Source: Candidatus Helarchaeota ASGARD archaeon Hel_GB_B
Lineage (GTDB): Archaea; Asgardarchaeota; Lokiarchaeia; Helarchaeales; HEL-GB-B
Length of the DNA stretch: 32,000 bases
Assembly (NCBI GenBank): GCA_005191425.1
Contig: SUPR01000001.1
Location: 1-32,000 of the forward strand
Reading direction: 5' to 3'
Shown: in pieces, positions 1 through 23,677 of the stretch
Layout of the letters: each line of letters begins with the position of its first letter
How positions within the stretch are numbered: position 1 is the stretch's first letter
The notes under the pieces: generated by a model
Told to the model about the DNA's origin: nothing
What the model saw: the letters and a program-made list of their open reading frames with translations, nothing else
The model's database searches: none
Program-made: the position numbers and the translations under genes

Positions 1-3000
1 ATTAAATTGATAATTAAAGAGAGTGAAATTAATTGTAAAAATGATTCGGTAGTAAATAATTCAGTTATATACAGTTGAAAACCAATAAAAGAAATGATAC
101 TGCCAAGAAAAGCGCCAGAAATTCCACCAATAACACCAGCTGCTAATGAAATTATTAATATTTTAAAACCTGAAACCAAAAAAATTTGGAAATTATTTCC
201 ACCAAGAGCTTTTATTATTCCAATAAATTTTCGCGATTCATTTAAACTAGATGATACAACATTCATGATCGATAAACTTACGAGAAGTGTGATTATTATT
301 GTTAAAATATAAATTATTGATTTTGTCAAACCAAAAGTTTGTTCAAGTAGAGACGATGAATATGAAATAGGATTTGCAACCAGATATTTTGACTCAAAAT
401 TACTTGCAATAGAAAAAAGAAGGTTAATGGTAGAATTAAGATTATAGGTATTAATATTTTTAGACCAAGTATTTCCTTTATAAGAAACTGAGATTATATA
501 TTCATCTTCGCACATCGAGAAAACTGCTTCTCCGTTAATATTAGTATAATTATTATATAATATACTCCCATTTTTTAGCAATACTTCTACTAAAACTCCA
601 GATACTAAATCATTTGAAGTATTTTTTACAATTACATTTAATTTATATGGTGGTAAATAAAAAATTAAGTTTCTATCACACCAAATATCTAAAATTTCTT
701 TTTTATAATATCCATTTTTTTCAACTGTAATATTATAGGAACCAGTTTCTAAATATATTTGACCAAGACCCAAGTCATTAGTGAATAATTGTTCATTAAT
801 TACATTATTGGTCGAAATTATGTTTATTTTTGCATATTGAAAAGGGGCGTCAAAACCATTTAAAACCTTGATTTTTACTAAATTTGTCCTAATTATTGAG
901 AAATTCAATGCCGTATCTTTAGTTAAATTTATGAATCGATATTGGTTTATGTTATGATAATAAATAGATACATTATATAGATTACTTTCAGTTATATCGA
1001 GGATAAACTTTACAGATCCATTAATATCCGTGATACCTTGAGCAACTAATGAAAAATTATTATATATTCTAACCAGAGCGTTTTTAATGGGTTTATTATT
1101 AACTGATTCAATTACTTTAATATCGAGGTTAAACCGTTTTGCTAATTTTATTTTGACAAAAGTGTTCGGATTTGTCTCTTTTAGATTTAATTGGACGGTA
1201 TTAGATAAATTTCCATATATAGCTGTAATGTTATATTCACCTTGATCTAAAACAAAATATGCAATTCCATTTGAATTTGTAAGATTCCATCCAATAGAAG
1301 AAATTGAAACATTAGAATTTGTTATGGGACCATTTGCATCATAAACTAAAATAGAAATATTATATGGGGGTATTAAAAAGTTTAAAATTGGATCAGAATT
1401 GACATTTATGATTTGACTTAATAACGTATTTAAATATTTAATTGTAACATTATAATCTCCAGATTTTTGAAGTAAAATACTTACAATTCCTGAAGAGCTA
1501 GAATTTGCAGTATAGATTTCTTGAGATTCGGGATATGTAGAAATTATAATCGTAGCATTTTCAATTGGTTTGGAGTTTAAAGCTGAAGTGATATTAATTG
1601 TTAAATTATAAGGTGGAGTATAAAAATTTATAATTTGGTTATTATCTCTGATCTCAACAATTTTCGAATAATTTTTACTATCAACCGTTATGGAGATATT
1701 ATATTTACCTGGATATAACATCCAAGAAACTTTTCCAAATTTATCAGTTGTCCCATTAAATATTCGTGAAGAATTTTCAATGTCTACAATCCTTATAGAT
1801 AAATTTTCCACAGAAATATTTTCTTGAAATGAACCATTAAAAACAATAAGGGTTAGATTGTAAGGAGGGATCATTATTTGTAAGTATTCATTAATATCAT
1901 TTACAATAAGGTTGGTGGAATAAATTTTCCGACTTGAATTTATCGTAATATTATAAAAATCAGGATAGAGTTTTAAATTGATTTCACCCGTTAAGTTTGA
2001 TATCGCGGAAACTTTGAACTTATCATTATAAATTGATACATTAGCGTTAGAAATTGCTGAATAATTGAACCCAATGATTTTTATTAAAACATTATAAGGA
2101 GGACACCAAAATGATAAATTAGTGTCCTTAATCAAATTAATTATTGTTGAATTAGAATATCCTGAAACAGTATATATTATTTTATAAACTCTTGATTCTA
2201 ATGAGGTGCACCAAAATCCATTTGTGCCAGTAGAATTAAAAATAGATATGTTATTTTCAGTATTAATTATAGTAATATTTGCATTTAATAAATTATGATT
2301 TGTGGAATTAATTACTGAAACATTTAATTTAAAGAATGGATATATATAAAAATGTAAAATCAAATCTGATTTTAAAGTTATTAACTTAAATTTTTTAGAT
2401 TGACCGACTATTACACTAATATTATAATAATCAGGTAATAAATTTGAAAATTGAATATATCCATCATTACCACTATAACCAGAGTCTATTAAAGTCCCAT
2501 TTAAATTCTTAATTTGCACTAAACAATCAATTAAACTTTGTTTTATTGTATCAAATACATTAATCCCTAATGAATAATTTCTAAAAAAGAAGTTTATGGT
2601 CATATTTTTATTTAAATTGACGTATTGCGTGAATTCAATTTGAGTTTTAGAATAATCGTTCCAATAAAATGTAGATATTTTATACTCTTCTTGCGGAAGC
2701 CATGCCTTTAAAATACCACTATCATTTGTTTGACCCATAAAAACCATTTCAGAATTATGCCAACAAGTGACCACTCTTTTAGAAATAGGGCTGGTTTGGT
2801 TATATAACCTAATAATCAATTGATAATGTGGATTGTATATACTTAAGTTTATTGTTTTTGTTAGATCATTTAATAAAAAAATAGATTCACTCTTTTTGAT
2901 ACCATTATATGAGATATTTAATGTGTAATTTCCAAAAGGTAAGTTAAAATTTAAATTACCAGTAGAATCGGTAGACCTTGAATAGAATATTTGTTTATTA

Positions 3001-3749
3001 ATATCATAGACTTTAACTTCTGCTCCTTGAATTGGTAAATTTGTGTAATAATTTTTAATGGTTAGATTCAAATTGTGTTTTCGCATGATAATTTCTTGTA
3101 ATTTATTTTTTGAAGTTATTTCTTGCTGAAATTTTATTCTTATAAATGTGCATTTAGAAGGATAGTGCCCAGCCATCCATTGGCCTAACGATAATGGAAT
3201 AATAATTTCATCATTTAGTGAATTTTTAGAGGATGAGAAAATGCCGACTACTTCTAATTCTAATGTAATATCTCTTAATGAACTGAAAACAATAAATTTT
3301 GACCCAATCTCTAAATTTAATTTTTGTGCAACTCTATACCCCAAGATAGCTCCATTTAAATTATTAGATGTCAGACTTTGGCCTTGAATAATTGTAAGAT
3401 CATCAATTTGCGAAAATTTACTGAAGTCTACACCCCGTGCCATAAATATCTGATTTTCTATAACGCAGGGGGTGATAGTTTCAGGGCTAGATACGATTAC
3501 ACCATTTAAATATGAAGCGCTTTTTGCTAATGAAACATCAATAAAACTGGTCGCAATAGTATTTCCTGAACCTTCTTCTGTTAAAATTAAAACATCTTGT
3601 GAATTTCCTAAATATGTTTGAATATATGAATATGCACCAAGAAATGTTGTGGTCGTAGCTGAAAATAATAAAGATGCTAAAATTAGACCAAAAAATATGT
3701 AATAAGAACGATTTCGGGGAATAATTTTAACTTGTAATAAAAATTTCAT
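1..3749 (-). CDS. Large MacB/FtsX-family ABC permease (3'-partial, >=1249 codons): N-terminal TM + MacB-like extracytoplasmic domain + 11 tandem ~80-aa beta-sandwich repeats + C-terminal FtsX TM domain
   Basis: Not in the ORF track because it runs off the left edge. Translated by hand from ATG at 3749 (overlapping the TGA of the upstream permease) with no stop to position 3. It starts MKFLLQVKIIPRNRSYYIFFGLILASLLFSATTTFLG, has MacB-like GAILGYRVAQKLNLEIGSKF...LEVVGIF, and ends in the FtsX-type SSSLNESRKFIGIIKALGGNNFQIF...LAAGVIGGISGAFLG. Confidence 0.9.
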   Translation of the reverse strand, partial: MKFLLQVKIIPRNRSYYIFFGLILASLLFSATTTTFLGAYSYIQTYLGNSQDVLILTEEGSGNTIATSFIDVSLAKSASYLNGVIVSSPETITPCVIENQIFMARGVDFSKFSQIDDLTIIQGQSLTSNNLNGAILGYRVAQKLNLEIGSKFIVFSSLRDITLELEVVGIFSSSKNSLNDEIIIPLSLGQWMAGHYPSKCTFIRIKFQQEITSKNKLQEIIMRKHNLNLTIKNYYTNLPIQGAEVKVYDINKQIFYSRSTDSTGNLNFNLPFGNYTLNISYNGIKKSESIFLLNDLTKTINLSIYNPHYQLIIRLYNQTSPISKRVVTCWHNSEMVFMGQTNDSGILKAWLPQEEYKISTFYWNDYSKTQIEFTQYVNLNKNMTINFFFRNYSLGINVFDTIKQSLIDCLVQIKNLNGTLIDSGYSGNDGYIQFSNLLPDYYNISVIVGQSKKFKLITLKSDLILHFYIYPFFKLNVSVINSTNHNLLNANITIINTENNISIFNSTGTNGFWCTSLESRVYKIIYTVSGYSNSTIINLIKDTNLSFWCPPYNVLIKIIGFNYSAISNANVSIYNDKFKVSAISNLTGEINLKLYPDFYNITINSSRKIYSTNLIVNDINEYLQIMIPPYNLTLIVFNGSFQENISVENLSIRIVDIENSSRIFNGTTDKFGKVSWMLYPGKYNISITVDSKNYSKIVEIRDNNQIINFYTPPYNLTINITSALNSKPIENATIIISTYPESQEIYTANSSSSGIVSILLQKSGDYNVTIKYLNTLLSQIINVNSDPILNFLIPPYNISILVYDANGPITNSNVSISSIGWNLTNSNGIAYFVLDQGEYNITAIYGNLSNTVQLNLKETNPNTFVKIKLAKRFNLDIKVIESVNNKPIKNALVRIYNNFSLVAQGITDINGSVKFILDITESNLYNVSIYYHNINQYRFINLTKDTALNFSIIRTNLVKIKVLNGFDAPFQYAKINIISTNNVINEQLFTNDLGLGQIYLETGSYNITVEKNGYYKKEILDIWCDRNLIFYLPPYKLNVIVKNTSNDLVSGVLVEVLLKNGSILYNNYTNINGEAVFSMCEDEYIISVSYKGNTWSKNINTYNLNSTINLLFSIASNFESKYLVANPISYSSSLLEQTFGLTKSIIYILTIIITLLVSLSIMNVVSSSLNESRKFIGIIKALGGNNFQIFLVSGFKILIISLAAGVIGGISGAFLGSIISFIGFQLYITELFTTESFLQLISLSLIINL
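400..3080 (-). repeat. Protein-level tandem array of 11 degenerate ~78-84 aa beta-sandwich domains (carboxypeptidase-regulatory/CnaB/prealbumin-like)
   Basis: In-frame PPY(N/K) repeat starts at 2102, 1868, 1616, 1370 and 653 (spacings 234, 252, 246 nt among the first four). Recurring pattern: L-x-I-x-V...PI-x-NA-x-V-x-I...G-x-T-x-x-x-G...L-x-x-G-x-YNITI. The fold assignment is inference. Confidence 0.8.
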
Positions 3750-5440
3750 TCTAGCATCCGCTCAATCTTTTTTCTTGATATATTATAAGACGGTATGAAT
3801 CCGCCAATTAATCCTGAACTTGTAGAAACTACTATTGCAAATAATATAAATAATGGATCAAATATTGGACTTATATATATTGATAAAAGGATATAAATTA
3901 AATATATTACACCGTAACATAGGAAAATACCACCAAATGCTCCTAATAAACTACCTAAAAAACTTAATATAAAACTTTCATATAAAAAAATTCTAATTAT
4001 TTGATTATTATTAGCACCTATAGACTTATAAATCTGAATCTCCTTTTTTGAATCTTTAATAATTACTTGCATGATATGAAACATTCCGAATAGCATTAAA
4101 CAAAAAATAAAAATAAACAATAATATTAAACTGTAGGTAGTCCTATTAATTAAATTACTAATGAATGAATTCATTTGATTTTCACGCTGAGCATTTAGTC
4201 CATTAAAATTATTTTCAATATAAGAAATTACTTCCGTTGATTTTGTATAATCAGTTAATTTAATTTCAATTACTGAATAATAATTAGAAAGTAAGGGGTT
4301 TAAATAATTAGATAAATTAAAATCTCCTATTATTCCTCCATCATAGTAAGAATTGGTCTGAAATATCCCAATTATATTAACTTCTCTTTTATTACCGCCC
4401 GCAGATAAATTCGCTTTTATCGGTAGATTATTACTTGATACGTTCAACATAATTGCGACTTCTAATCCTAAAATTATTTCAGAATCATTCATATTAGTAG
4501 GATTTTTATAATACCAATTCATTGTTTGACGCAAATTTCTAAATAAGGAATAATTCAAGCCGTAAAAATAAGTGGAAATATTATTATTTTCTTTTGAAAT
4601 ATTAATTTTAAAATATTTTTGAGGGCATTTAATATCAATATATTGGTGTGTTATTTGGTCTGGGATCTTAATATTAATAATGCTATCAGAAAATGAGTTA
4701 GATGAACTATTTGTTATAATAAGAAAGTTTGCATACTGATATTTTCCTGCTAATATGCCGATTTGATAATAATAGCCAGTAACTAATGGTTTAGGGACTA
4801 CTATTAACGCTACACTTATTGCTATACCAAATATTGCTCCCAATGTCCGTTTTTTCCTGCTTAAAATTGATTTGACTGATAGACTAATAAAACCGCCAAT
4901 TTCAATTTCTAACGTAGAAAACAGAAAAGCTAAACCAGTCAAAATTATCCAAATGATAATTGTACTTATTAATATCTCACCAAATGTGGAGATAGAAATT
5001 TTTAAAATATATTTATTCAAAAAATAAAATATTGATATAAAAGAAGGAGATATTACAAAACCTGAATTTAATAAATTTATTATTTTTATCTTCTTATACA
5101 CTGAAATTAAAAATATAATTAATAACCACAAGAGAATTAAGACTATTTCAGTTATAATAAATAATACAGGTGAGAAATATATATTAATTACAATATATTT
5201 GAGGTCTAAGTTAATAGCATAATGATAAAAAAGTTCCATAATAGGTTCCCAAGTAGTTGTAGATAAGATAAGACTTAACAATGAACTTCCAAAAATAAAA
5301 ACCAAAATTCCGTGCCATGCATTTACTTTTGTTAAATTCTTATAATATGATTTACCGGATAAAAACAAAGCACCTATAAATTTCTTATAAAATGAATAAT
5401 TACCTTTTTTATCTCTTATATCACTATTAACTGATTTCAA
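3746..5440 (-). CDS. MacB/FtsX-family ABC permease (564 aa) with an extra N-terminal multi-TM domain
   Basis: SILSRKKRTLGAIFGIAISVALIV (MacB N-terminal TM), EIILGLEVAIMLNV...VNIIGIF (MacB PCD), KDSKKEIQIYKSIGANNNQIIRIFLYE and GFIPSYNISR (FtsX domain). TTG start. Confidence 0.9.
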   Translation of the reverse strand: MKSVNSDIRDKKGNYSFYKKFIGALFLSGKSYYKNLTKVNAWHGILVFIFGSSLLSLILSTTTWEPIMELFYHYAINLDLKYIVINIYFSPVLFIITEIVLILLWLLIIFLISVYKKIKIINLLNSGFVISPSFISIFYFLNKYILKISISTFGEILISTIIIWIILTGLAFLFSTLEIEIGGFISLSVKSILSRKKRTLGAIFGIAISVALIVVPKPLVTGYYYQIGILAGKYQYANFLIITNSSSNSFSDSIINIKIPDQITHQYIDIKCPQKYFKINISKENNNISTYFYGLNYSLFRNLRQTMNWYYKNPTNMNDSEIILGLEVAIMLNVSSNNLPIKANLSAGGNKREVNIIGIFQTNSYYDGGIIGDFNLSNYLNPLLSNYYSVIEIKLTDYTKSTEVISYIENNFNGLNAQRENQMNSFISNLINRTTYSLILLFIFIFCLMLFGMFHIMQVIIKDSKKEIQIYKSIGANNNQIIRIFLYESFILSFLGSLLGAFGGIFLCYGVIYLIYILLSIYISPIFDPLFILFAIVVSTSSGLIGGFIPSYNISRKKIERMLE

Positions 5441-5464: not shown

Positions 5465-6340
5465 TTATATCTTATTTCCTAATATTAAATTTATTTTTAT
5501 TGTATTAAAATCATCAATAAATGTAATAGAATCCAATTTCAATTGATATTTTATTTTTTTTATTAATAACATAATAATTATATTGCAAATGGGTAGAAAA
5601 ATTATAGTATTTAAACCAATATAATTATCAAGTAGATTTATATTATTCAAAAATTTATTATTTATTATCTTTATTTCAATAGAACCCTCTGAAATCTCAG
5701 ATATTATTATATCATCCACTAGATTATATTTTATTTTGAATATTTGGGCTACCTTTTTTATAAATGATGAATAACTTTTATAATATATATAATCTAACAA
5801 CTCTTTCTCCATTTTTTCCATAAAATTAGTACCTAAAGGTACAATAACAAAACCATAATCAGTAATATATTCGATAATTTTATTCATAGATTTGATCGAT
5901 AACTTAGAAATATCCTTTTTTATATCCTCAAATTTTAAAATTAATACAGGCTGGTTCTCTAAAAGAGTGTAAAAGAGAGAATATGTATTATTCTTAAAAA
6001 ACAATTTATTATGAACTGACAATAAAAAATTTTTAAGTTCAATGTTCAATTTATTGATTTCAGAATTGTCATTATAATAAAATATTATAAAAAAACCAAA
6101 CCCACCAATTGTAGCCGCCCATACTGCCATTAATATATAATTAGAATATTCACTAAACAAAAAAAGCGAAATTATATAAAATAAATATATAAAAATCAAA
6201 AATAATAGATATAAATATTTGAAATATGGCTTAATTTTATCATATTTTTTTTGTAAATAATTTTCTCTATGGTTTATTATTTTTGATTTTTCATTGAGGA
6301 TTTTTTGAATTTTTTCCTTTATATTGTTTTGATTATTCAT
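5465..6340 (-). CDS. Membrane protein with two N-terminal TM helices and a C-terminal soluble domain with V4R-like character
   Basis: Hydrophobic YLYLLFLIFIYLFYIISLFLF and ILMAVWAATIGGFGFFIIFY; C-terminal IEIKIINNKF...LPICNIIIMLL. ATG at 6340 overlaps the upstream stop by 8 nt and is preferred over the track start at 6358. Confidence 0.7.
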   Translation of the reverse strand: MNNQNNIKEKIQKILNEKSKIINHRENYLQKKYDKIKPYFKYLYLLFLIFIYLFYIISLFLFSEYSNYILMAVWAATIGGFGFFIIFYYNDNSEINKLNIELKNFLLSVHNKLFFKNNTYSLFYTLLENQPVLILKFEDIKKDISKLSIKSMNKIIEYITDYGFVIVPLGTNFMEKMEKELLDYIYYKSYSSFIKKVAQIFKIKYNLVDDIIISEISEGSIEIKIINNKFLNNINLLDNYIGLNTIIFLPICNIIIMLLIKKIKYQLKLDSITFIDDFNTIKINLILGNKI

Positions 6341-8228
6341 TTTCTTTATCCATTTCATTGATAAGATTTTTAAGAATGTTTTTTAATTCGTTATCAGGGA
6401 GATATATTATATTTTGTAATTTGGAATAGGTTAGATTAGAATTTTCTTTTATATATTTTTTTAACCAATTTTGAAATCTAATTTTATCTAATATGACCAA
6501 GGTTGAATTATTTTTCGCAATAATATAGCGTAAATTATTATCATTATTAACCAATTTTCTAATTGTATTATCAAATTTTTTAAATGTAATATTGTTCTTT
6601 TTACAAAATTCCGTTATTTTAATGGTTTTATTTGAATTTAATAGCTTATATATTAATTTTTCAATTCTTTTTGATTTGTTTAAAATTATATATCCAATAG
6701 TAAAAATTAAAGTCAATATTATTATTAATAATATTAACAAAAGTAGATAAAAAGGGTTCATATAAAATGGGTTTACTATTAAGTTCAACGAATAAATGCC
6801 GAGAATATTGCTAAAATAATAAATTATTATAGAAACTGAAGCGTTTCCAGGAGGAGATGTCCATGACATAGTTAATTTTAAGCTAAAATTGTTTTCTCCG
6901 GGAGTTATATTAATTAGTTTATATGTTTCATATATCCGATCGCTAGAAAAAATTAAGATGGTAATATTTATCGAATAATTATAATAATTGTTATAATTAA
7001 CATTCATTACAATATTTTCTCCAGGATATACAGTAATTTTTGGACAATTAAATTTAAAACTATAGGGCTTATTAATTATTATTGACAAATTACGAAAGTA
7101 TATTTGTAAATCACTACCATTAAACGATTTATTTATATAAATTTTAACGATAAGATAGGTTTTTTTTGGTAGTGCATTATATTGACATTTAATATTACCG
7201 TCTATCTTTCTATTTAATTCATATTTATAGAGCACACCAGTAAGCTCATCATTTTCAAAAAATTGGGAAATAAAATTTATTCTATAAGAAAAATTGGAAT
7301 CACAATAATTTGAAATCGTAAGGTTGTAAAATAGCGAGTTGAACAATAAAATCTGGGAATTATAATTAAAATTTGTGATAAATGGAGTGCTAAAAAATCG
7401 GTTAATAACTAACGAATAAATCCAATTACCAATTGTAGTAAAATTTAATGTATCAATCCAATCAGCATGTACCCTGATAAAATACCCCCGCCCGTTTTTA
7501 GGTTGAAATAAAATAGGATCAGCCAAATCACCATTTTGACAATATAATTCGTAATAAATAGAATTTGACTCCAATAAACTAATAGAAGTGAAAATATCAT
7601 TAGTATGAGAAAATAATTTCGGAATATAGTATTTTCCAAGCGTCGTTGGAATTACAAGTTGATCAGACCTAGTTATAATATAATTCATATCTAAGACTTT
7701 TTGACCACCATTATGTCCATATTCTTTGTTTGTCCCATTTGGATAACTTATCCAATAAAACTCTTCACATCCAGTCCAGAGAATTATTCCTCCATTGTCC
7801 AACCATTTTTCAATTAATGAATTTTCAGACCCATTCCAAATAAAATATGGAAGGATACCCATTGAAACTATTAAAATTCCTTTAGAATTATTCTCTAAAA
7901 AGTTAAGTAAATGTATATCGTCTAAGATATTGCTCTTAATTCCAAAATTATTAAAACTTGTATTTAAAAAATCAGCTAATTCTTTAGAATATGAGATCCA
8001 AGGGGCAGAATAATTGTCATCATAAAAAATAACAACAGGTAATAAATTATTTTTTGAATTACTATAAATATTGCCATTATTTAGAAATTTTTGAGGGACT
8101 TGACCAAAATTAGTCAGATTTACATTTAAAATAAATGAAAAAAAATAACCTGATGCAATAAATAATAAAATACCATATAATTTTGTTTTTCTCAAATAAA
8201 TGACCAATAAAAATGTTAGTTTAATCAA
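6333..8228 (-). CDS. Predicted surface glycoprotein: N-terminal anchor, alpha/beta extracellular domain, Ig-like region, TM helix, cytoplasmic winged-helix-like tail (631 aa)
   Basis: N-terminal hydrophobic segment; KWLDNGGIILWTG motif; many N-x-S/T sequons; TM FYLLLLILLIIILTLIFTIGYIIL; basic tail LLNSNKTIKITEFCKKNNITFKKFDNTIRKLV. Confidence 0.75.
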   Translation of the reverse strand: MIKLTFLLVIYLRKTKLYGILLFIASGYFFSFILNVNLTNFGQVPQKFLNNGNIYSNSKNNLLPVVIFYDDNYSAPWISYSKELADFLNTSFNNFGIKSNILDDIHLLNFLENNSKGILIVSMGILPYFIWNGSENSLIEKWLDNGGIILWTGCEEFYWISYPNGTNKEYGHNGGQKVLDMNYIITRSDQLVIPTTLGKYYIPKLFSHTNDIFTSISLLESNSIYYELYCQNGDLADPILFQPKNGRGYFIRVHADWIDTLNFTTIGNWIYSLVINRFFSTPFITNFNYNSQILLFNSLFYNLTISNYCDSNFSYRINFISQFFENDELTGVLYKYELNRKIDGNIKCQYNALPKKTYLIVKIYINKSFNGSDLQIYFRNLSIIINKPYSFKFNCPKITVYPGENIVMNVNYNNYYNYSINITILIFSSDRIYETYKLINITPGENNFSLKLTMSWTSPPGNASVSIIIYYFSNILGIYSLNLIVNPFYMNPFYLLLLILLIIILTLIFTIGYIILNKSKRIEKLIYKLLNSNKTIKITEFCKKNNITFKKFDNTIRKLVNNDNNLRYIIAKNNSTLVILDKIRFQNWLKKYIKENSNLTYSKLQNIIYLPDNELKNILKNLINEMDKENE

Positions 8229-8321: not shown

Positions 8322-9359
8322 ATGAAAATAATAGTAACTGGTGGGTCTGGTTTTATCGGCTCAAATTTAGTTTATAATTTAATGCAAGACCAAGAAAACG
8401 AAATTTTTATAATCGATAGTTTGATTAGGGAGGGGTCTCAGTATAATTATGAATGGTTATCTGGCCAATTTAAGAGTTACGAGAATTTTCATTTTATTCA
8501 AGAAGATATAAGAAAATTTGATAGTATTAAAAATTATTTTAAAGATGTAGACATGGTTTTTCATATAGCAGGGCAAGTTGCGGTGACTACATCAGTAATA
8601 GATCCGATAACTGATTTTGAGATTAATGCTAGAGGTACCTTAAATATATTAGAGAGTTCTAGATTGTCAAATAATGACCCAATTATTTTATTTACATCAA
8701 CAAATAAGGTGTATGGAAATTTAGAAATCTATGATGTTGTTTTAAGAAATAACAGATGGGATTTTAAAGATTTAAAAAAAGGTAATAGTGAAACCACACC
8801 TGTAGATTTTCATAGTCCTTATGGGTGTTCTAAAGGGACTGCTGATTCTTATATGAAGGATTATTATAGAATTTATGGCTTAAAGACTATTGTTTTTAGG
8901 ATGTCTTGCATTTATGGCACAAGGCAATTTGGAAATGAAGACCAAGGCTGGGTTGCTCATTTTATAATTTCAAGCATTTTAAACAAAAAATTAACAATTT
9001 ATGGCGATGGTAAACAAGTAAGAGATATTTTATTTGTAGATGATTTGATAAATGCAATGAAATTAGCTACTACTAATATTGATAAAACAAAAGGAAATGT
9101 TTATAATATTGGTGGTGGGCCAAGTAATGTAATATCGCTTCTAGAATTAATTGAAATACTTGAAAATAAACTAAAAAGGAAAATACCACTGAATTTCGAT
9201 GATTGGAGACCTGGAGACCAAAAAGTTTACTATTCAAATATTACAAAGGCTAATAATGATTTTAAATGGACCCCAAATATTAATAAAATTGACGGTATTT
9301 CAAAATTATACAATTGGGTAATAGAAAACAAGGAAATGATCAAAAAAATATTTAAATAA
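8322..9359 (+). CDS. rfbE: NAD-dependent epimerase, CDP-paratose 2-epimerase (RfbE/Tyv)-like SDR
   Basis: GGSGFIGSN, HIAGQVAVTTS, STNKVYG, SPYGCSKG, RMSCIYGTRQFGNEDQGWVAHF and WRPGDQKVY are characteristic of this subfamily. Confidence 0.8.
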   Translation: MKIIVTGGSGFIGSNLVYNLMQDQENEIFIIDSLIREGSQYNYEWLSGQFKSYENFHFIQEDIRKFDSIKNYFKDVDMVFHIAGQVAVTTSVIDPITDFEINARGTLNILESSRLSNNDPIILFTSTNKVYGNLEIYDVVLRNNRWDFKDLKKGNSETTPVDFHSPYGCSKGTADSYMKDYYRIYGLKTIVFRMSCIYGTRQFGNEDQGWVAHFIISSILNKKLTIYGDGKQVRDILFVDDLINAMKLATTNIDKTKGNVYNIGGGPSNVISLLELIEILENKLKRKIPLNFDDWRPGDQKVYYSNITKANNDFKWTPNINKIDGISKLYNWVIENKEMIKKIFK

Positions 9360-9380
9360 CTCAAGAGGGGTTATATTTAT

Positions 9381-10277
9381 ATGAAAATTAAAAAAGCAAT
9401 AATTCCAAGCGCTGGACTGGGGACTCGCTTATTACCTGCCACTTTTGCACAACCAAAAGAAATGTTGCCAGTGGGTAGAAAACCAACTATTCAATATGTA
9501 GTTGAGGAACTGGCAAATGCAGGTATTTCAGATATTTTAATTATAACCGGACGAAATAAACGCGCAATTGAAGACCATTTCGATATAGATTATACATTAC
9601 TTGAAAATCTTAAACAACATGGAAAAAATAAATTACTAGAACAAATGAGTTTTTTAGAAAAATTGAAAGTTAATATATTTATTACTCGACAATCAAAACC
9701 CACAGGACTTGCAGACGCCGTTCTTCTAGGAGAAGCATTTATCGAAAATGAACCATTTGCAGTCGCATTGGGAGACACGATTATAAAATCTTCTAAAAAG
9801 AATAATAACTATCTAAAAAGGTTATGCGAGTTCCACCTCAAAAAAAATTCTTATGGAACTATTGGAGTTGAACCAGTCAGCCTAGAACAAGTCTCAAAAT
9901 ACGGAATTATAGAAGGTAATCAAGATAATGAAGGAATTTACAAAGTATTAAACTTAATAGAAAAACCTTTACCTTCTGAAGCACCTAGTAATCTTGCTAT
10001 TAACGGTAGATATGTTTTTAATCCTGAAATTTTTGACTGTATTAAAAAAACAAAAATTGGAATTGGAAATGAACGACAATTGACGGATTCAATTCGAATT
10101 TTATTAGATTTAAAAAAGAATGATATTTGGGCTATCTGTATGAAAAAAGGAGAAAAACGATATGACATCGGAAATCCTCTAGATTATGCAAAAGCATTTA
10201 TAGAATTATGTCTGGACGACTCAGAAATTAAAGATGATTTAATAATTTTTCTTAAAAAATTCATAAAGAATTTATAA
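9381..10277 (+). CDS. galU: UTP--glucose-1-phosphate uridylyltransferase
   Basis: KAIIPSAGLGTRLLPATFAQPKEMLPVGRKPTIQYVVEE, GRNKRAIEDHFD, VEPVSLEQVSKYGI, IEKP...APSNLAINGRY, YDIGNPLDY. Confidence 0.9.
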   Translation: MKIKKAIIPSAGLGTRLLPATFAQPKEMLPVGRKPTIQYVVEELANAGISDILIITGRNKRAIEDHFDIDYTLLENLKQHGKNKLLEQMSFLEKLKVNIFITRQSKPTGLADAVLLGEAFIENEPFAVALGDTIIKSSKKNNNYLKRLCEFHLKKNSYGTIGVEPVSLEQVSKYGIIEGNQDNEGIYKVLNLIEKPLPSEAPSNLAINGRYVFNPEIFDCIKKTKIGIGNERQLTDSIRILLDLKKNDIWAICMKKGEKRYDIGNPLDYAKAFIELCLDDSEIKDDLIIFLKKFIKNL

Positions 10278-10290
10278 TTTCAAACTCATA

Positions 10291-11502
10291 ATGACTCAAA
10301 TCGTTTTAATTGGTCCACCGTTAATAAGCATACCACCTAAAAGTGGAGGTGCAATCGAAAAATATATTTTTGAATTGGGGACTTATCTATCAAAATTGAA
10401 CTTTAAAATTATCATCTTTACAATAAAAGACATAAATAATAATAAAGTAGAAGTTTTAAATGAAAATTTGAGGATAGTTAAGGTTAAAACTTTTCAAATA
10501 CCAATTTTAAGAGGTATAATCTATAATTTTAAAGTTTTTCTACGATTACTCCAATTAAAAGAAAAGAAAATTATATGGACTAATGGTATTTCTCAGATTT
10601 TAATTATTATGATTATTAAATTATTTTCTAAAAATATTGCAACCATATTTACAACGCATAATATAAGGCCATGGTTTAAGACGGGGACGCATTCAAAAGT
10701 TAGAGATATAATTGATCTGTTTTTAGGTATTCAATGTCTTAGATACTCGGATTTTATTATTACGCTTACAAATAGGATGAAAAATTACTTGAATAATAGA
10801 TTCTTAAAAGAAAATAAATTTGAAGTCATCCCAATAGGCATATCAAAAAACATCCTTAAAAAGTTCCCCTTAAAAAAATATCCCGAAGAACAAGCGAAAA
10901 AGCTTTTTCAAATTATTTATATCGGTCAAATTAATAAATTAAAAGGATTGGACATTCTTATTGAATCTATACATCAAATAAATAATAGAAACTTAAATTA
11001 TAAGTTATTTCTTAAGATAATTGGTCAACTTAGCAATGATATTGCTTCAGATATGCATAAAAAAAGAAAATATTTAACAAAAATTAGAAATTTAATAAAA
11101 AACCTTCAATTAAATAATTTTGTCGAATTTAAGGGAAAACTTGAGTCGAGTAAGGTTTTTAATGAGATTTATGATTCAGATTTGTATGTTTTACCGTCAA
11201 TGGGAGAAACTTTTAATTTAAGTGCATTAGAATCTCTTGCAATTGGTACTCCAATTGTAATTACAAATAGTACAGGAATCTCAGAATATCTTACACATGG
11301 AAAAAATTGCCAAATCATTTTAAAGAGAAATTCTATATCGATAACCAATGCAATTTATTCTCTCTTGAAAAATTTAAGTCTAACAAATCAAATTAAGATT
11401 AATTCAAGAAAAATAGTGTCTGAAAAATTTCTGTGGGACAATTTAATTAAAAAATATGAAAAATTTATACGAAATATATTAGAGAAACATAAAATGAAGT
11501 GA
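10291..11502 (+). CDS. Glycosyltransferase family 4 (GT-B)
   Basis: N-terminal PPKSGGAIEKYI; C-terminal YIGQINKLKGLDIL and DLYVLPSMGETFNLSALESLAIGTPIV. Confidence 0.9.
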   Translation: MTQIVLIGPPLISIPPKSGGAIEKYIFELGTYLSKLNFKIIIFTIKDINNNKVEVLNENLRIVKVKTFQIPILRGIIYNFKVFLRLLQLKEKKIIWTNGISQILIIMIIKLFSKNIATIFTTHNIRPWFKTGTHSKVRDIIDLFLGIQCLRYSDFIITLTNRMKNYLNNRFLKENKFEVIPIGISKNILKKFPLKKYPEEQAKKLFQIIYIGQINKLKGLDILIESIHQINNRNLNYKLFLKIIGQLSNDIASDMHKKRKYLTKIRNLIKNLQLNNFVEFKGKLESSKVFNEIYDSDLYVLPSMGETFNLSALESLAIGTPIVITNSTGISEYLTHGKNCQIILKRNSISITNAIYSLLKNLSLTNQIKINSRKIVSEKFLWDNLIKKYEKFIRNILEKHKMK

Positions 11503-20721: not shown

Positions 20722-21032
20722 ATTTTTAATAAAAGCATATACTCTAAAAATTAAACAATTTCTACTTTTATTTTTTCTTATTTCTATTTCATTTATTATT
20801 CTTTCATCAAATGTGAAAATTCTTTCCATATAATATATAAAATTCAATGTCTTTTCCATATTGACTCCATCCTCCCGGTTTTAAACTTTTTTTATTTTAA
20901 CAATTAAAAAAATAAAGTTTACTCTTTTACTAATGTAATTTTAAAAGTAATTTAAAAATTTGAACATAAATTCTTAGTTAATAAAATATAAGAATCAAAT
21001 TAAAATTAAAAAAAATAAAAAAATTGAGATAA

Positions 21033-22217
21033 TTAATCTGGGTGGCCTAAGATTGTCACAGAACAAACAGAATAAGCTCCACCTAAATTATGTGCAAGCG
21101 CAAGATTTGGATCTTTTACTTGCTCGCCTAACGCTTTTCCTTGTAATTGTTTATAACATTCCCAGATCATTCTACAGCCTGTAGCACCAATTGGATGCCC
21201 AAAGCACTTTAGTCCACCAGATGGATTGACAGCTACTTGGCCATCAACATTGAAAAACCCTTCTTTTAATTTTGTTGGAGCCTCACCTATTTCACAAAAC
21301 CCTAAATCTTGGCAATTTAATAATTCGGTTATTGTAAAACAGTCATGGACTTCAGCAAGCGAAATTTCTTGAGCAGGGTTAGTAACGCCAGCTTCATGAT
21401 ATGCGAGTTCAGCAGCTCTTCTGGTAGCAGGGAATTTAATAAAATCGAATTTTGGGTCGTACCAGGGAGTTGCGGTTTCAACGGCAACGGCATTTGCTTT
21501 AACAATGATATAATCAGAGTTAAAAGAGGGAGCCAATTCTGGAGTGGTGATAACAAGTGCGGCGGACCCATCAGACATAGCGCAGCAATCGTATCTGCCC
21601 AATGGATCAGCAATCATAGGAGCGTTCATTGCGTCTTCAATGGTAATAGCACGCCTAAAGTGAGCTTTGGGATGTTTTACGCCATTTTTATGGTTTTTGA
21701 CGGCGACTCTAGCCAAATCTTCTTTAGTCCAGCCGTGTTCATGAAAAGACCTGGTAGCTGCAAAGCAGAACATAGCAGGCGCCGAGGGCAATGGAAGAAG
21801 AGGATGGCCCATTTGTTTAAAGCCAGGTAGCCCGGATGAGCCTTCGTCCATTAACTTTTCAACGCCACAAGCCAGTACTACATCATTGACGCCAGATGCA
21901 ACTGCAAAGCACGCATTTCTAAAGGCGTCCATACCAGATGCACAGAAATTTTCTACTCGAGTGATAGGTTTTCCATAGAGTTTTAAGGAGTCAGCAGCAG
22001 TAACACCAGCTAGGCCAGTAAACCAATATTGATTTCCAAGCCAGATAGCTTCGATAGTATTTTCAATTTCATCATGATCTTTAAAGCCAGCGTCATTAAA
22101 AGCTTCATAACCAGCTTCAATTAAAAGGTCTTCAACGCCCATATCCCATCTTTCGCCAAATTTAGTAGCGCCACCACCAATAATTGCTACACGATCTCTA
22201 ATACCTTTTTTACCCAT
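21033..22217 (-). CDS. Thiolase-family acyltransferase (SCP2-type/archaeal thiolase)
   Basis: ENFCASG (catalytic Cys), NHKNG...P.AH, DCCAMSDG, EVHDCFT, GGLKCFGHPIGATG, HNLGG. Confidence 0.9.
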   Translation of the reverse strand: MGKKGIRDRVAIIGGGATKFGERWDMGVEDLLIEAGYEAFNDAGFKDHDEIENTIEAIWLGNQYWFTGLAGVTAADSLKLYGKPITRVENFCASGMDAFRNACFAVASGVNDVVLACGVEKLMDEGSSGLPGFKQMGHPLLPLPSAPAMFCFAATRSFHEHGWTKEDLARVAVKNHKNGVKHPKAHFRRAITIEDAMNAPMIADPLGRYDCCAMSDGSAALVITTPELAPSFNSDYIIVKANAVAVETATPWYDPKFDFIKFPATRRAAELAYHEAGVTNPAQEISLAEVHDCFTITELLNCQDLGFCEIGEAPTKLKEGFFNVDGQVAVNPSGGLKCFGHPIGATGCRMIWECYKQLQGKALGEQVKDPNLALAHNLGGAYSVCSVTILGHPD

Positions 22218-22219
22218 AT

Positions 22220-23677
22220 TTATTCAGCCTCCGCCTTTTTTACAGAAGGTTTACATTTATAATAATAACCAATCATATTTTGGTGTTGTTCAAGGTCTCC
22301 GCCTTCATGTAATTTTCTAAAGATGATATCAACTTTATCCCCGATTTTAACTTCATAAGGATTGCAATCGGTCATATTTAGGAGAATTCTGCCGCCACCA
22401 TCAAGTTCGATAACGCACCTTGGGACAGGTGTTTCAAAGTATTCGGCTCCGATTAAGTGATCAAGGGTAAAAGTATAAATGGTACCATGTCTGGGGAGTT
22501 TATAAAGTTCCCAATTATCTTTAGCTCCGCAGACCATACAAGCTCGCCAGTTTGGATATTGGACAGCACCACAATTTTTACATTTTATTCCATAGAGTTT
22601 ATGAACTCTGAGGGCTTCTCTCCAGATCAAAACAGGGCTAGCTTTACGGGTTAATGGTTTTTTAGATTTAACAAGGTATCGATTTTTAAGATATGTATTA
22701 TAATTATCAAGAGTTTTTTGTTTTCTAATGCGTTTCTTAACTTTCATTCTATCTTTGCTTAGTTCTTTTCCGGAACCCGTTCCAGTTAAATAGAAGGCAT
22801 CAGCCCCATCACCATAACCACCTAGAAGGATATTTTGACCTTCTTTAACTTTTTCGAAGACCGTGGCTAGAGATATAAAAGGTAACGGTGTACCTACGTT
22901 TGATAAGTCCATCCATAATGGGTCAACTACTGCTTTTTTATCAAATTTCATTATTTTAGCTATAGTTCCATGGAATCGAGGGTCTGGAGCATAGTAAGCT
23001 GCTTTATCGACTTTATCAGGAGTCAATTCAAATTTTTCCATTAGTCCTTTAAAAGCACGTACCATAGAATCGGTATAATTTAATTTAGTTTCGACTTTAA
23101 TTTCGAATGTCCTTACAAATTCATCAAAAGATCGCCTATAAGGGCCAACAGTATTAGTGCTTATGGAATAATAACCCTCAATATTAGCAATGCCAGGTTC
23201 ACTAGAAACTAATACCGAAGCAGCTGCGTCACCGAAAGCATATTCATACATAGTTAAAGGTTCAGGGTCTCTTTTATCAGAAGTTACAATTAATATATTT
23301 TTAGCATCACCTGCTTTGATAGTGTCGTAAGCAACTCGGAGAGCTGTTGTTGCTGCTCGAGTAGTTCCAAGGAAATCATTAGTTAAAATATCATCATTTA
23401 AGTCAAGGACAGTAGTAATAAGAGATGCATTTAATTTTTCAGCATATGGAGCAGTAGTGGAAGCAAAAAATAGACCATCAACAGATTTAAGGTCAATACC
23501 TTTTAAGCATTCAAGACCGGCTTCAACTGCCATTGTAATGCTGTCTTCGTCATAATTAGCTACAGATTTTGTTCCAGGTACAATTGGAAAATCCCAAGCT
23601 TCACCAATTTTCTTTCTAGGGAGTTTATAACCTGGGAGATAAGTACCCCATGATTTTATAGACACCAATTTTTCCAA
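22220..23677 (-). CDS. HMG-CoA-synthase-like domain (catalytic residues missing) fused to DUF35 Zn-ribbon/OB-fold
   Basis: KSVANYDEDSITMAVEA and GDAAA (HMGS fold); C-terminal CKNCGAVQYPNWRACMVC and GTIYTFT...VKIGDKV (DUF35). Ends 2 nt before the thiolase start. Confidence 0.85.
   Translation of the reverse strand: MEKLVSIKSWGTYLPGYKLPRKKIGEAWDFPIVPGTKSVANYDEDSITMAVEAGLECLKGIDLKSVDGLFFASTTAPYAEKLNASLITTVLDLNDDILTNDFLGTTRAATTALRVAYDTIKAGDAKNILIVTSDKRDPEPLTMYEYAFGDAAASVLVSSEPGIANIEGYYSISTNTVGPYRRSFDEFVRTFEIKVETKLNYTDSMVRAFKGLMEKFELTPDKVDKAAYYAPDPRFHGTIAKIMKFDKKAVVDPLWMDLSNVGTPLPFISLATVFEKVKEGQNILLGGYGDGADAFYLTGTGSGKELSKDRMKVKKRIRKQKTLDNYNTYLKNRYLVKSKKPLTRKASPVLIWREALRVHKLYGIKCKNCGAVQYPNWRACMVCGAKDNWELYKLPRHGTIYTFTLDHLIGAEYFETPVPRCVIELDGGGRILLNMTDCNPYEVKIGDKVDIIFRKLHEGGDLEQHQNMIGYYYKCKPSVKKAEAE

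What the first reader, a model, noticed from the sequence alone, without database searches (positions are those of the whole stretch)
1..3749. Unannotated giant MacB/FtsX permease carrying 11 tandem, heavily sequon-rich beta-sandwich domains
Seen: an open frame of >=1249 codons, absent from the ORF track. Between the MacB-like domain and the FtsX TM bundle sit 11 degenerate ~80-aa repeats (about 3080 to 400), with about 50 N-x-S/T sequons by manual count. Known: MacB/FtsX/LolE (type VII ABC) permeases normally have a compact extracytoplasmic domain and act by mechanotransmission. Inference: a loop of about 900 aa anchored at both ends could be an ATP-driven glycosylated surface appendage, an adhesin, or a spacer or guide crossing the S-layer or glycocalyx. 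I do not know a characterised protein with this architecture.
Basis: partly seen in the sequence, partly recalled or inferred. Interest (0 to 1): 0.8.

Follow-up and report, generated by a model that had tools for sequence, protein, structure and literature searches.

The report
Giant glycosylated LolCE-like permease, Asgard
An uncultured Asgard (Helarchaeota) archaeon encodes a MacB/LolC-type membrane protein whose outer domain carries a chain of 11 small beta-sandwich modules studded with conserved sugar-attachment sites. It belongs to an undescribed family found across Asgard archaea that is always paired with a second permease, lies beside a PMT-like sugar transferase gene, and never has its ATPase gene nearby.

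Summary
Window 3..3749 (-) is an open 1249-codon frame cut only by the contig end. The full protein has 1279 aa.

It reads TM1, MacB_PCD, 11 transthyretin-like beta-sandwich repeats (aa 226-1115), then an FtsX three-helix bundle. The repeats hold 50 N-x-S/T sequons, against 20 +/- 4 expected. Of these, 29 are conserved in all five orthologues.

It is not a one-off:
- Relatives of 940-1480 aa occur in 55 of 400 Asgard genomes and form one clade.
- In 13 of 13 loci a smaller FtsX gene lies directly upstream.
- No ABC ATPase gene is nearby. In a closed relative genome the other 11 FtsX loci each have one.
- A PMT_2-like GT-C glycosyltransferase is adjacent in 10 of 10 loci outside this order, and 3.3 kb away here.

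Best reading: the large subunit of a LolCE-like heterodimer that displays a heavily glycosylated, doubly anchored rod or loop. ATP drive through an unlinked ATPase is only inferred.

Public records call it "FtsX-like permease" and I found no paper on it. This scan has already noted the same system in other Asgard genomes. Verdict: a new variant of a known kind.

The parts
3..3749 (-). Gene for the giant MacB_PCD / 11-repeat / FtsX permease. The window holds 1249 of its 1279 codons; the 3' end is lost at the contig break.
3075..3749 (-). aa 1-225: short basic cytoplasmic N-terminus, TM1 (about aa 18-40) and the MacB-type extracytoplasmic core domain. It carries no sequon.
   Evidence: Pfam MacB_PCD 36.9 bits. 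Hydropathy. 62-71% identity among orthologues. 0 sequons against 1.9 expected.
405..3074 (-). aa 226-1115: 11 tandem transthyretin-like (CarboxypepD_reg) beta-sandwich repeats of about 80 aa. Boundaries in nt: 2829-3074, 2583-2828, 2331-2582, 2094-2330, 1860-2093, 1608-1859, 1368-1607, 1131-1367, 882-1130, 645-881, 405-644. They hold 50 N-x-S/T sequons.
3..404 (-). aa 1116-1249: last strand of the PCD, stalk helix, TM2, coupling-helix motif (E-S-R-K-F-I-G-I-I-K-A-L-G at aa 1171) and TM3-4 of the FtsX domain (truncated).
   Evidence: Pfam FtsX. Alignment to LolF chains 9w37/9w35 over aa 1114-1273. Motif. 60-68% identity among orthologues.
3746..5440 (-). Partner permease P0008 (564 aa). FtsX domain at aa 440-558, an extracytoplasmic domain of about 210 aa, and about four extra N-terminal TM helices. 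Its stop overlaps the giant's ATG by 4 nt.
5465..6358 (-). P0009 (297 aa): membrane protein with 2-3 TM helices and no family match. It is the same-strand operon neighbour and is conserved within the order.
6333..8228 (-). P0010 (631 aa): type-I membrane protein with a sequon-rich ectodomain (16 against 7.8 expected) and a cytoplasmic tail of about 110 aa. It is the first gene of the four-gene string.
8322..11502 (+). Divergent sugar-nucleotide and glycosyltransferase genes: SDR epimerase/dehydratase (8322-9359), sugar-1-phosphate nucleotidyltransferase (9381-10277) and a GT4 glycosyltransferase (10291-11502).
   Evidence: The same set is conserved beside the orthologues.

Best explanation
The gene encodes the large subunit of a heterodimeric LolC/LolE- or MacB-type membrane complex (type VII ABC superfamily) of a Helarchaeota archaeon.

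Shown:
- The chain has the family's plan: cytoplasmic N-terminus, TM1, extracytoplasmic MacB-type core domain, then TM2-4.
- An 890-residue array of 11 transthyretin-like beta-sandwich domains is spliced in between the last helix of the core domain and the short strand and stalk that lead into TM2.
- Array-less relatives carry only a short Pro/Ser/Thr-rich linker at this point.
- The array is therefore held to the membrane base at both ends.
- It carries about 50 N-x-S/T sites, and these are conserved much better than other asparagines.
- The genome encodes an STT3/AglB oligosaccharyltransferase.

Inferred:
- The array is a densely N-glycosylated rod or hairpin loop of about 20-40 nm on the cell surface. 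Asgard archaea are not known to have an S-layer.
- It pairs with the translationally coupled smaller FtsX protein P0008.
- It is glycosylated by, or works together with, the PMT_2-like GT-C glycosyltransferase and the other sugar enzymes that stay linked to the pair across Asgard lineages.
- Both subunits keep the cytoplasmic coupling-helix motif, so the pair is probably still driven by a MacB/LolD-type ATPase encoded elsewhere. The candidate is the orphan 226-aa gene at G000:C98:4424-5104.
- ATP-driven movement of the core domain against the TM2 stalk would then pull on the two ends of the array (mechanotransmission).

What that movement achieves is unknown.
For: Architecture and topology.

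Fold of the repeats:
- Pfam CarboxypepD_reg, 135 bits.
- A single repeat modelled at pLDDT 93 with 7 strands.
- Foldseek TM 0.6-0.8 to transthyretin and carboxypeptidase D/E domains.

Glycosylation:
- 50 sequons against 19.8 +/- 3.8 expected.
- All five orthologues have 48-52 sequons, and 29 array sites are conserved in all five.
- Sequon Asn is retained at 82%, other Asn at 42%.
- The sequon Y-N-[IV]-[ST] sits at the same repeat position in 34 of 55 repeats.
- STT3 is present in the genome.
- N-x-S/T glycosylation has been demonstrated in a cultured Asgard archaeon (PMC11284389).

Ancient, fixed array:
- The orthologues are 1279-1281 aa and align almost without gaps at 51-57% identity.
- Same-index repeats are 46% identical, other-index repeats 23%.

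Family:
- 55 of 400 Asgard genomes have a match.
- All 52 proteins of 900 aa or more fall in one clade of the PCD tree, SH-aLRT 95.

Pairing: a smaller FtsX gene lies directly upstream in 13 of 13 loci, often overlapping.

GT-C linkage:
- In 10 of 10 loci from five other families, a homologous 780-933-aa protein with 14-15 TM helices is directly adjacent, in convergent, divergent or co-directional order.
- Its profile matches this lineage's Pfam-verified PMT_2 protein (hhalign probability 92%, E 5e-7). Two negative controls failed.
- Atlas features score 0.98 to PMT_2/DUF8201 clusters.
- In this lineage PMT_2, GT1, GT4 and sugar-nucleotide genes flank the operon.

ATPase in trans:
- The coupling-helix motif is kept in both subunits.
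- An orphan MacB-type NBD exists in this genome.
- Its best hit in the closed genome G015 (53% identity) is likewise not next to any FtsX gene.
- An array-less relative has its NBD in the same operon.
Against: - No ATPase gene lies within 32 kb on one side and 8 kb on the other here, within about 8-10 kb in the 12 related loci, or within about 65 kb in closed genome G015. There the other 11 FtsX loci each have one within 2 kb. The pair may therefore work without ATP.
- The orphan NBD cannot be tied to the pair. MacB-type NBDs at this similarity occur in 233 of 400 Asgard genomes, whether or not they have the giant.
- In several distant giants my crude regex did not find the coupling-helix motif.
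- There is no expression data.
- The full-length model is too poor to give the shape of the array (pLDDT 55, pTM 0.29).
- Glycosylation is inferred, not measured.
- The family is nearly absent from the largest sampled family of the window's own class (f6, 1 of 135 genomes).
Confidence: 0.5

Rival explanations
1. Static glycocalyx protein. The FtsX-type helices of the pair have lost their motor and serve only as a two-point membrane anchor. The array is a passive, sugar-coated spacer or protective coat that stands in for an S-layer.
For: The ATPase gene is consistently absent from all 13 loci, and this pair is the only ATPase-less FtsX locus in a closed genome. Sequon density is about 1 per 18 residues, higher than the 1 per 30-40 quoted for S-layer glycoproteins (PMC11284389). 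A single repeat also resembles beta-sandwich domains of the S-layer stalk protein SlaB. Asgard cells show unordered surface densities instead of an S-layer (PMC9834061).
Against: The PCD, stalk and TM2-4 are the best conserved parts (60-71% identity, against 44-57% for the repeats). The coupling-helix motif, which has no known role other than docking an NBD, is invariant in the five orthologues and kept in the partner. A plain anchor would not need a conserved two-subunit permease. An orphan MacB-type NBD is available.
Confidence: 0.27
2. Glycan or glycolipid handling machine. The pair extracts or presents polyprenyl-phosphate-linked sugars, or another lipid-anchored substrate, to the adjacent GT-C enzyme, much as LolCDE extracts lipoproteins or DevCBA exports glycolipids. 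The array would be a guide or scaffold for the growing surface polymer.
For: A GT-C gene is tightly and repeatedly adjacent in three different gene orders. In one family two membrane GT2 synthase-type genes lie in the same string as the GT-C. The closest solved relatives by sequence are LolF chains.
Against: Adjacency of a glycosyltransferase to its own glycoprotein substrate explains the same data more simply. No flippase-like or substrate-binding feature was identified. The sequon conservation shows that the array itself is a glycosylation target.
Confidence: 0.13
3. Adhesin or cell-cell contact protein. The array is a reach-extending stalk that binds partners or surfaces, like bacterial Ig-repeat adhesins.
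For: The whole-array fold search also returns SdrD, Cna, YeeJ and the GhpA grappling hook. Asgard archaea are thought to live in syntrophic contact (PMC9834061).
Against: There is no distinct tip or ligand-binding domain, because all 11 modules are the same fold. The chain returns to the membrane, so there is no free distal end. Repeat number and sequence are fixed rather than variable among orthologues, unlike most adhesins.
Confidence: 0.08

Closest known systems
LolC/LolE (and LolF) permeases of the LolCDE lipoprotein-release transporter; type VII ABC superfamily (MacB, FtsX, HrtB, BceB)
   Same: It has the four-helix FtsX topology with a MacB-type core domain between TM1 and TM2, and a stalk plus coupling-helix motif. 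Two different permease genes sit side by side, as with LolC and LolE. LolF chains (9w37, 9w35) are the only solved structures found by sequence (E 1.5e-4, aa 1114-1273).
   Different: An 890-aa array of 11 beta-sandwich domains is inserted in the core domain. No ATPase gene lies in the locus. Archaea have no outer membrane, so there is no lipoprotein-release task. The partner has four extra N-terminal helices. The link to glycosyltransferase genes is not a Lol feature.
NOMO1/2/3 (BOS complex subunit of the ER multipass translocon) and C. elegans NRA-4
   Same: These are the best whole-array structural matches in Swiss-Prot models (Foldseek E 2e-34 to 6e-31, spanning aa ~100-1185, against 4e-21 for the next family). 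Both are membrane-tethered strings of 11-12 transthyretin-like (CarboxypepD_reg-type) domains of about 80-90 aa facing the non-cytoplasmic side.
   Different: A single repeat does not return NOMO among its 30 best matches. The NOMO-specific Pfam model scores below threshold (17.8 bits against 27). The likeness therefore lies in domain class, period and number, and no specific homology is shown. From my own knowledge, NOMO has a signal peptide and one C-terminal helix, not an FtsX scaffold.
Carboxypeptidase regulatory-like / transthyretin-like domains (PF13620) in tandem, as in bacterial surface proteins (B. anthracis TIE protein 6fwv, SdrD B repeats, alpha-2-macroglobulin MG domains)
   Same: Same seven-strand beta-sandwich, with the conserved G...Y.[IV] strand motif and tandem beads-on-a-string arrangement.
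   Different: Those arrays have a free end or are wall-anchored at one end. Here both ends are fixed in a permease domain, and nearly every module carries conserved N-glycosylation sites.
Archaeal MacB-type ABC operons with a separate membrane-anchored Ig-repeat 'stalk' protein
   Same: They combine a MacB/FtsX-type permease with a long chain of beta-sandwich modules on the archaeal surface.
   Different: There the rod is a separate protein and the ATPase is in the operon. Here the rod is spliced into the permease itself and the ATPase gene is missing.

Membership tests
Type VII ABC transporter permease (MacB/LolC/LolE/FtsX superfamily) | C-terminal FtsX domain (PF02687: TM2-4 with the cytoplasmic loop) | tested here: met
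   31.4 bits against a cut-off of 25.5 on the truncated copy. The genome search gives 38.2 bits. The full-length orthologue carries it.
Type VII ABC transporter permease (MacB/LolC/LolE/FtsX superfamily) | Extracytoplasmic MacB-type core domain (PF12704) between TM1 and TM2 | tested here: met
   36.9 bits against a cut-off of 27, aa 20-190. TM helices lie at about aa 18, 1138, 1186, 1210 and 1236.
Type VII ABC transporter permease (MacB/LolC/LolE/FtsX superfamily) | Coupling helix between TM2 and TM3 that docks the ATPase | tested here: met
   The motif E-x3-I-G-x2-K-A-L-G at aa 1171 is invariant in its key residues in five orthologues. A similar motif is in the partner at aa 463. This tests sequence only; docking was not tested.
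Type VII ABC transporter permease (MacB/LolC/LolE/FtsX superfamily) | Cognate ABC ATPase fused or encoded in the same operon | tested here: not met
   There is no PF00005 match on C93 or C31 and none near the pair in 12 related loci. In closed genome G015 the nearest is about 65 kb away, while the other 11 FtsX loci have one within 2 kb.
Type VII ABC transporter permease (MacB/LolC/LolE/FtsX superfamily) | ATP-driven mechanotransmission to the outer domain | not testable with these tools
   Needs biochemistry or structures in nucleotide states.
LolCDE-type heterodimer | Two distinct permease subunits forming one complex | tested here: inconclusive
   The genes are adjacent or overlapping in 13 of 13 loci. 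Physical pairing is not shown.
CarboxypepD_reg / transthyretin-like domain repeats (PF13620) | Profile match above threshold and a seven-strand beta-sandwich fold | tested here: met
   135.4 bits against a cut-off of 32.3. AF2 single repeat: pLDDT 93, 7 strands. TM 0.6-0.8 to transthyretin and carboxypeptidase D/E/Z domains.
NOMO (BOS complex subunit) | NOMO-specific domain models above threshold; a single domain specifically closest to NOMO | tested here: not met
   NOMO_5th scores 17.8 bits against a cut-off of 27. NOMO is absent from the top 30 single-repeat matches. Only the whole array ranks NOMO first.
N-glycoprotein (AglB/STT3 substrate) | Extracytoplasmic N-x-S/T sites, an oligosaccharyltransferase in the genome, and glycans attached | tested here: inconclusive
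   The sites are enriched and conserved and STT3 is present. Attachment itself is not testable here.

The most novel reading that the evidence does not exclude
The pair, its obligately linked PMT-like GT-C enzyme and an unlinked ATPase may form a dedicated machine. This machine would build and move a sugar-coated, doubly anchored rod of 11-13 domains, serving as the main glycocalyx element of S-layer-less Asgard archaea. Such arrays could also be the prokaryotic stock from which the eukaryotic ER protein NOMO (12 domains of the same type) arose.
Probability: 0.1. Interest if true: 0.85.

Novelty: new variant of a known kind. Interest (0 to 1): 0.65.

Why it matters
The molecules that make up the Asgard cell surface are unknown. 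Cryo-tomography shows only unordered densities on a single membrane with no S-layer (PMC9834061).

This family is a concrete, conserved candidate for such a surface structure. It occurs in Helarchaeota, Lokiarchaeota, Odin-, Heimdall- and Hodarchaeota records.

It is also an unusual use of the mechanotransmitting ABC scaffold: a huge glycosylated loop spliced into the outer domain, a lost operon link to the ATPase, and a gained link to a PMT-like GT-C glycosyltransferase.

It gives testable targets for glycoproteomics, in-situ structure work, and the question of how archaea without an S-layer organise their surface.

The array-level likeness to eukaryotic NOMO is a lead for ER-protein origins, but it is weak at present.

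Tried and rejected
1. Full-length AlphaFold2 model of aa 1-1200 with a 5-row alignment: mean pLDDT 55, pTM 0.29. The PCD, TM helices and repeats 9-10 scored below 50. It cannot give the shape of the array or show PCD-array contacts.
2. Complex prediction with the giant's two membrane-proximal pieces plus P0008 aa 190-564: score 0.30, below the mark of 0.34, so no verdict.
3. Phyletic test linking the orphan ATPase to the pair: at E 1e-68, 233 of 400 Asgard genomes have a match, so it does not discriminate. The ATPase of the array-less relative's operon hits three ATPases of this genome equally at 36-41%.
4. Expression: no RNA holder listed for window 1-3749.
5. P0010: the Atlas feature search gave only weak leads (0.82, CARDB). 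Pfam gives nothing significant for P0009 or P0010.
6. The ~390-aa proteins that match the PCD profile are not the partner subunits (21-27% identity to partners). They are array-less relatives.
7. The 535-aa neighbour in the array-less locus and the 489-aa neighbour downstream here are not GT-C homologues (hhalign probability below 1%).
8. Profile search of the GT-C-like family against solved structures: no hit.
9. A di-repeat alignment (A4) aligned out of register and was not used.
10. Rfam and tRNA scans of the window were empty.
11. Literature searches (FtsX + Asgard; MacB + FtsX + archaea; MacB_PCD; NOMO + Asgard) found no description of this architecture.


Full report
**Observation**

The minus strand of window 3..3749 is one open frame of 1249 codons with no stop. 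It starts at an ATG that overlaps the stop of the upstream gene by 4 nt. The window begins at base 1 of contig C93 of a 3.5-Mb, 182-contig genome, so the frame is cut by an assembly break and not by a mutation.

A second public assembly is 100% identical over the first 12 kb of the window and carries the complete 1279-aa protein, P0002. In this genome the missing 3' end and the downstream genes lie on contig C31, after a gap of about 32 bp.

Pfam finds three families above threshold:
- MacB_PCD at aa 20-190.
- FtsX at aa 1148-1246.
- CarboxypepD_reg, with a summed score of 135 bits.

A self-profile started from aa 226-305 converges on 11 repeats of about 80 aa, covering aa 226-1115 or nt 405-3074.

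I count 52 N-x-S/T sequons, 50 of them in the repeats. Shuffling the same residues gives 19.8 +/- 3.8.

**Anatomy**

Hydropathy puts TM1 at about aa 18-40, behind a basic N-terminus, and three to four helices after aa 1138. That is the FtsX topology, with everything from aa 41 to about 1137 outside the cell.

Array-less relatives of about 390 aa align with aa 1-226 and then again with the last 165 residues or so. Between those two parts they have only a 20-30-residue Pro/Ser/Thr/Gln-rich linker. The array is therefore a clean insertion at one variable point, after the last strand-helix unit of the core domain.

The only solved relatives found by sequence are LolF chains. They align to aa 1114-1273. 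In that alignment the segment at aa 1121-1127 matches the short strand that precedes the stalk helix in Lol proteins.

From what is known of MacB and LolC structures, that strand belongs to the membrane-proximal Porter subdomain. This step rests on my own knowledge and was not tested. If it is right, both ends of the array leave from the same small domain, so the array must be a loop, hairpin or arch.

**The repeats**

- The full-length model was poor overall (pLDDT 55). It still predicted seven strands per unit for repeats 1-8 and 11 at pLDDT 60-85.
- Repeat 9 was badly modelled in that run. Modelled alone, with 57 repeats as its alignment, it gave pLDDT 93, pTM 0.82 and seven strands.
- Its nearest folds are transthyretin, the regulatory domains of carboxypeptidases D, E and Z, FAM171 and SlaB (TM 0.6-0.8).
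- The repeats are old. They are 23% identical to each other, but each is 46% identical to the same-numbered repeat of an orthologue that is 51% identical overall.
- The five orthologues are 1279-1281 aa long and align almost without gaps.
- A relative in the same order has 12 repeats (1363 aa). The extra unit sits in the middle of the array.

**Glycosylation sites**

- Each orthologue has 48-52 sequons.
- 29 array sites are conserved in all five.
- Asparagines in sequons are retained at 82%, other asparagines in the array at 42%.
- One site, Y-N-[IV]-[ST] on a core strand, recurs in 34 of 55 repeats. Another sits in the P-P-Y-N-x-T linker.
- The core domain has no sequon at all.
- The genome encodes STT3/AglB.
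- N-x-S/T glycosylation has been shown in a cultured Asgard archaeon (PMC11284389).

Heavy N-glycosylation of the array is thus a strong inference, but it has not been measured.

**A family, not a singleton**

The TM1+PCD profile finds only 358 clusters among 1.84 billion representative proteins. Of the best 150, 53 are 900 aa or longer.

In a tree of the core domain, all 52 long proteins that entered the tree fall in one clade (SH-aLRT 95). Most short rows inside that clade are N-terminal fragments. The true ~390-aa forms branch outside it.

Among 400 Asgard genomes, 55 have a match, mostly in open frames of 940-1480 aa. It is near-universal in some families (30 of 31, 3 of 3, 9 of 12) and rare in the largest family of the window's own class (1 of 135).

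Source names include Helarchaeota, Lokiarchaeota, Odinarchaeota, Heimdallarchaeota, Hodarchaeota and Geothermarchaeales. The product names are generic. The repeat profile recognises units in most of the shorter and some of the longer relatives, and all are sequon-rich.

**Conserved company**

A smaller FtsX gene lies directly upstream on the same strand, often overlapping, in every locus examined. That is 3 loci of this order plus 10 others, and also the locus of P0007.

No ABC ATPase gene is near any of them:
- This genome has no PF00005 match on C93 or C31.
- In closed genome G015 the other 11 FtsX loci each have an ATPase within 2 kb. The giant pair has none within about 65 kb.
- An array-less relative has its ATPase in the same operon.

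Both subunits here keep the coupling-helix motif. This genome has an orphan MacB-type ATPase at C98:4424-5104. Its best hit in G015 is also not next to any FtsX gene. I could not link it to the pair.

**A glycosyltransferase link**

In all 10 loci outside this order, the pair is directly flanked by a homologous protein of 780-933 aa with 14-15 TM helices and no Pfam match. The arrangement is convergent in six loci, divergent in two and co-directional in two.

Evidence that this neighbour is a GT-C glycosyltransferase:
- Its profile matches the Pfam-verified PMT_2 (GT-C) protein that lies 3.3 kb downstream of the giant in this lineage (hhalign probability 92%, E 5e-7, 288 columns). SecY and two other membrane neighbours give probabilities below 1%.
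- Language-model features point the same way, scoring 0.98 to PMT_2/DUF8201/DUF1420 clusters.
- An invariant Asp sits in a W-D-A-L-H-F motif in the first outer loop. From memory this recalls the D-E-x-H-F loop of protein O-mannosyltransferases.

Here the operon is also flanked by GT1, GT4, a sugar nucleotidyltransferase and an epimerase. In another family two GT2 genes follow the GT-C. Linkage that survives rearrangement across five families argues for a functional tie.

**Reading**

The best-supported reading is a LolCE-like heterodimer whose large subunit displays a heavily glycosylated, doubly anchored rod or loop. I infer that it is glycosylated by, or works with, the linked GT-C enzyme. 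I also infer that it is probably driven by an unlinked ATPase.

The rivals are a motor-less static coat protein, a lipid-linked-glycan handling machine, and an adhesin.

**Comparison with the known**

It meets the sequence and topology criteria of type VII ABC permeases. It fails the criterion of a linked ATPase.

The whole array is structurally closest to eukaryotic NOMO proteins (E 2e-34, against 4e-21 for the next family). A single repeat does not prefer NOMO, and NOMO-specific Pfam models are below threshold. That likeness is a lead only.

I found no paper on the architecture.

This scan has already reported the same system in other Asgard genomes (e1-548417, e1-2790966, e1-548402). I read those notes after reaching my own reading, and they agree with it. 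They are not independent evidence.

Noticed in passing
L019:12766-15564, L025:3992-6334 and eight more (alignment A6): An Asgard family of 780-933-aa proteins with 14-15 TM helices and no Pfam match. It is distantly related to PMT_2 GT-C glycosyltransferases, has an invariant Asp in a W-D-A-L-H-F loop motif, and is always next to the FtsX pair.
   Followed up: partly
G000:C113:24182-25357 (own genome, other contig): The only STT3/AglB match of the genome lies in an open frame of 1646 aa, far longer than usual archaeal AglB proteins.
   Followed up: no
G000:C113:555-8593: A standard FtsX (397 aa) plus ATPase (305 aa) pair is followed on the same strand by an ORF of 1955 aa with an N-terminal membrane helix. 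It may be a separate giant partner of an ABC motor, like modules this scan noted in other archaea.
   Followed up: no
window 6333-8228 (-): P0010 is a 631-aa type-I membrane protein with a sequon-rich ectodomain (16 against 7.8 expected), a cytoplasmic tail of about 110 aa and a weak PCI-domain hit. It is the first gene of the four-gene string and is conserved only within this order.
   Followed up: partly
L019:6048-7334 (+), closed relative genome G015: A 428-aa protein directly upstream of the FtsX pair has a weak match to the first longin domain of FUZ/MON1/HPS1 (E 4e-4, below threshold).
   Followed up: no
window 1 / G000:C31:1: The assembly break falls inside the last transmembrane helix region of the giant gene. 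Contigs C93 and C31 are neighbours separated by about 32 bp, as shown by the sister assembly.
   Followed up: yes
window 21000-23000: G+C rises to 0.37-0.43, against about 0.25 elsewhere, over two minus-strand ORFs (21033-22217 and 22220-23677).
   Followed up: no
P0139 (2879 aa), P0092 (2095 aa), P0027 (1682 aa): Members of the same core-domain clade reach 2095-2879 aa or carry extra membrane domains. The insertion site therefore tolerates very different loads.
   Followed up: no
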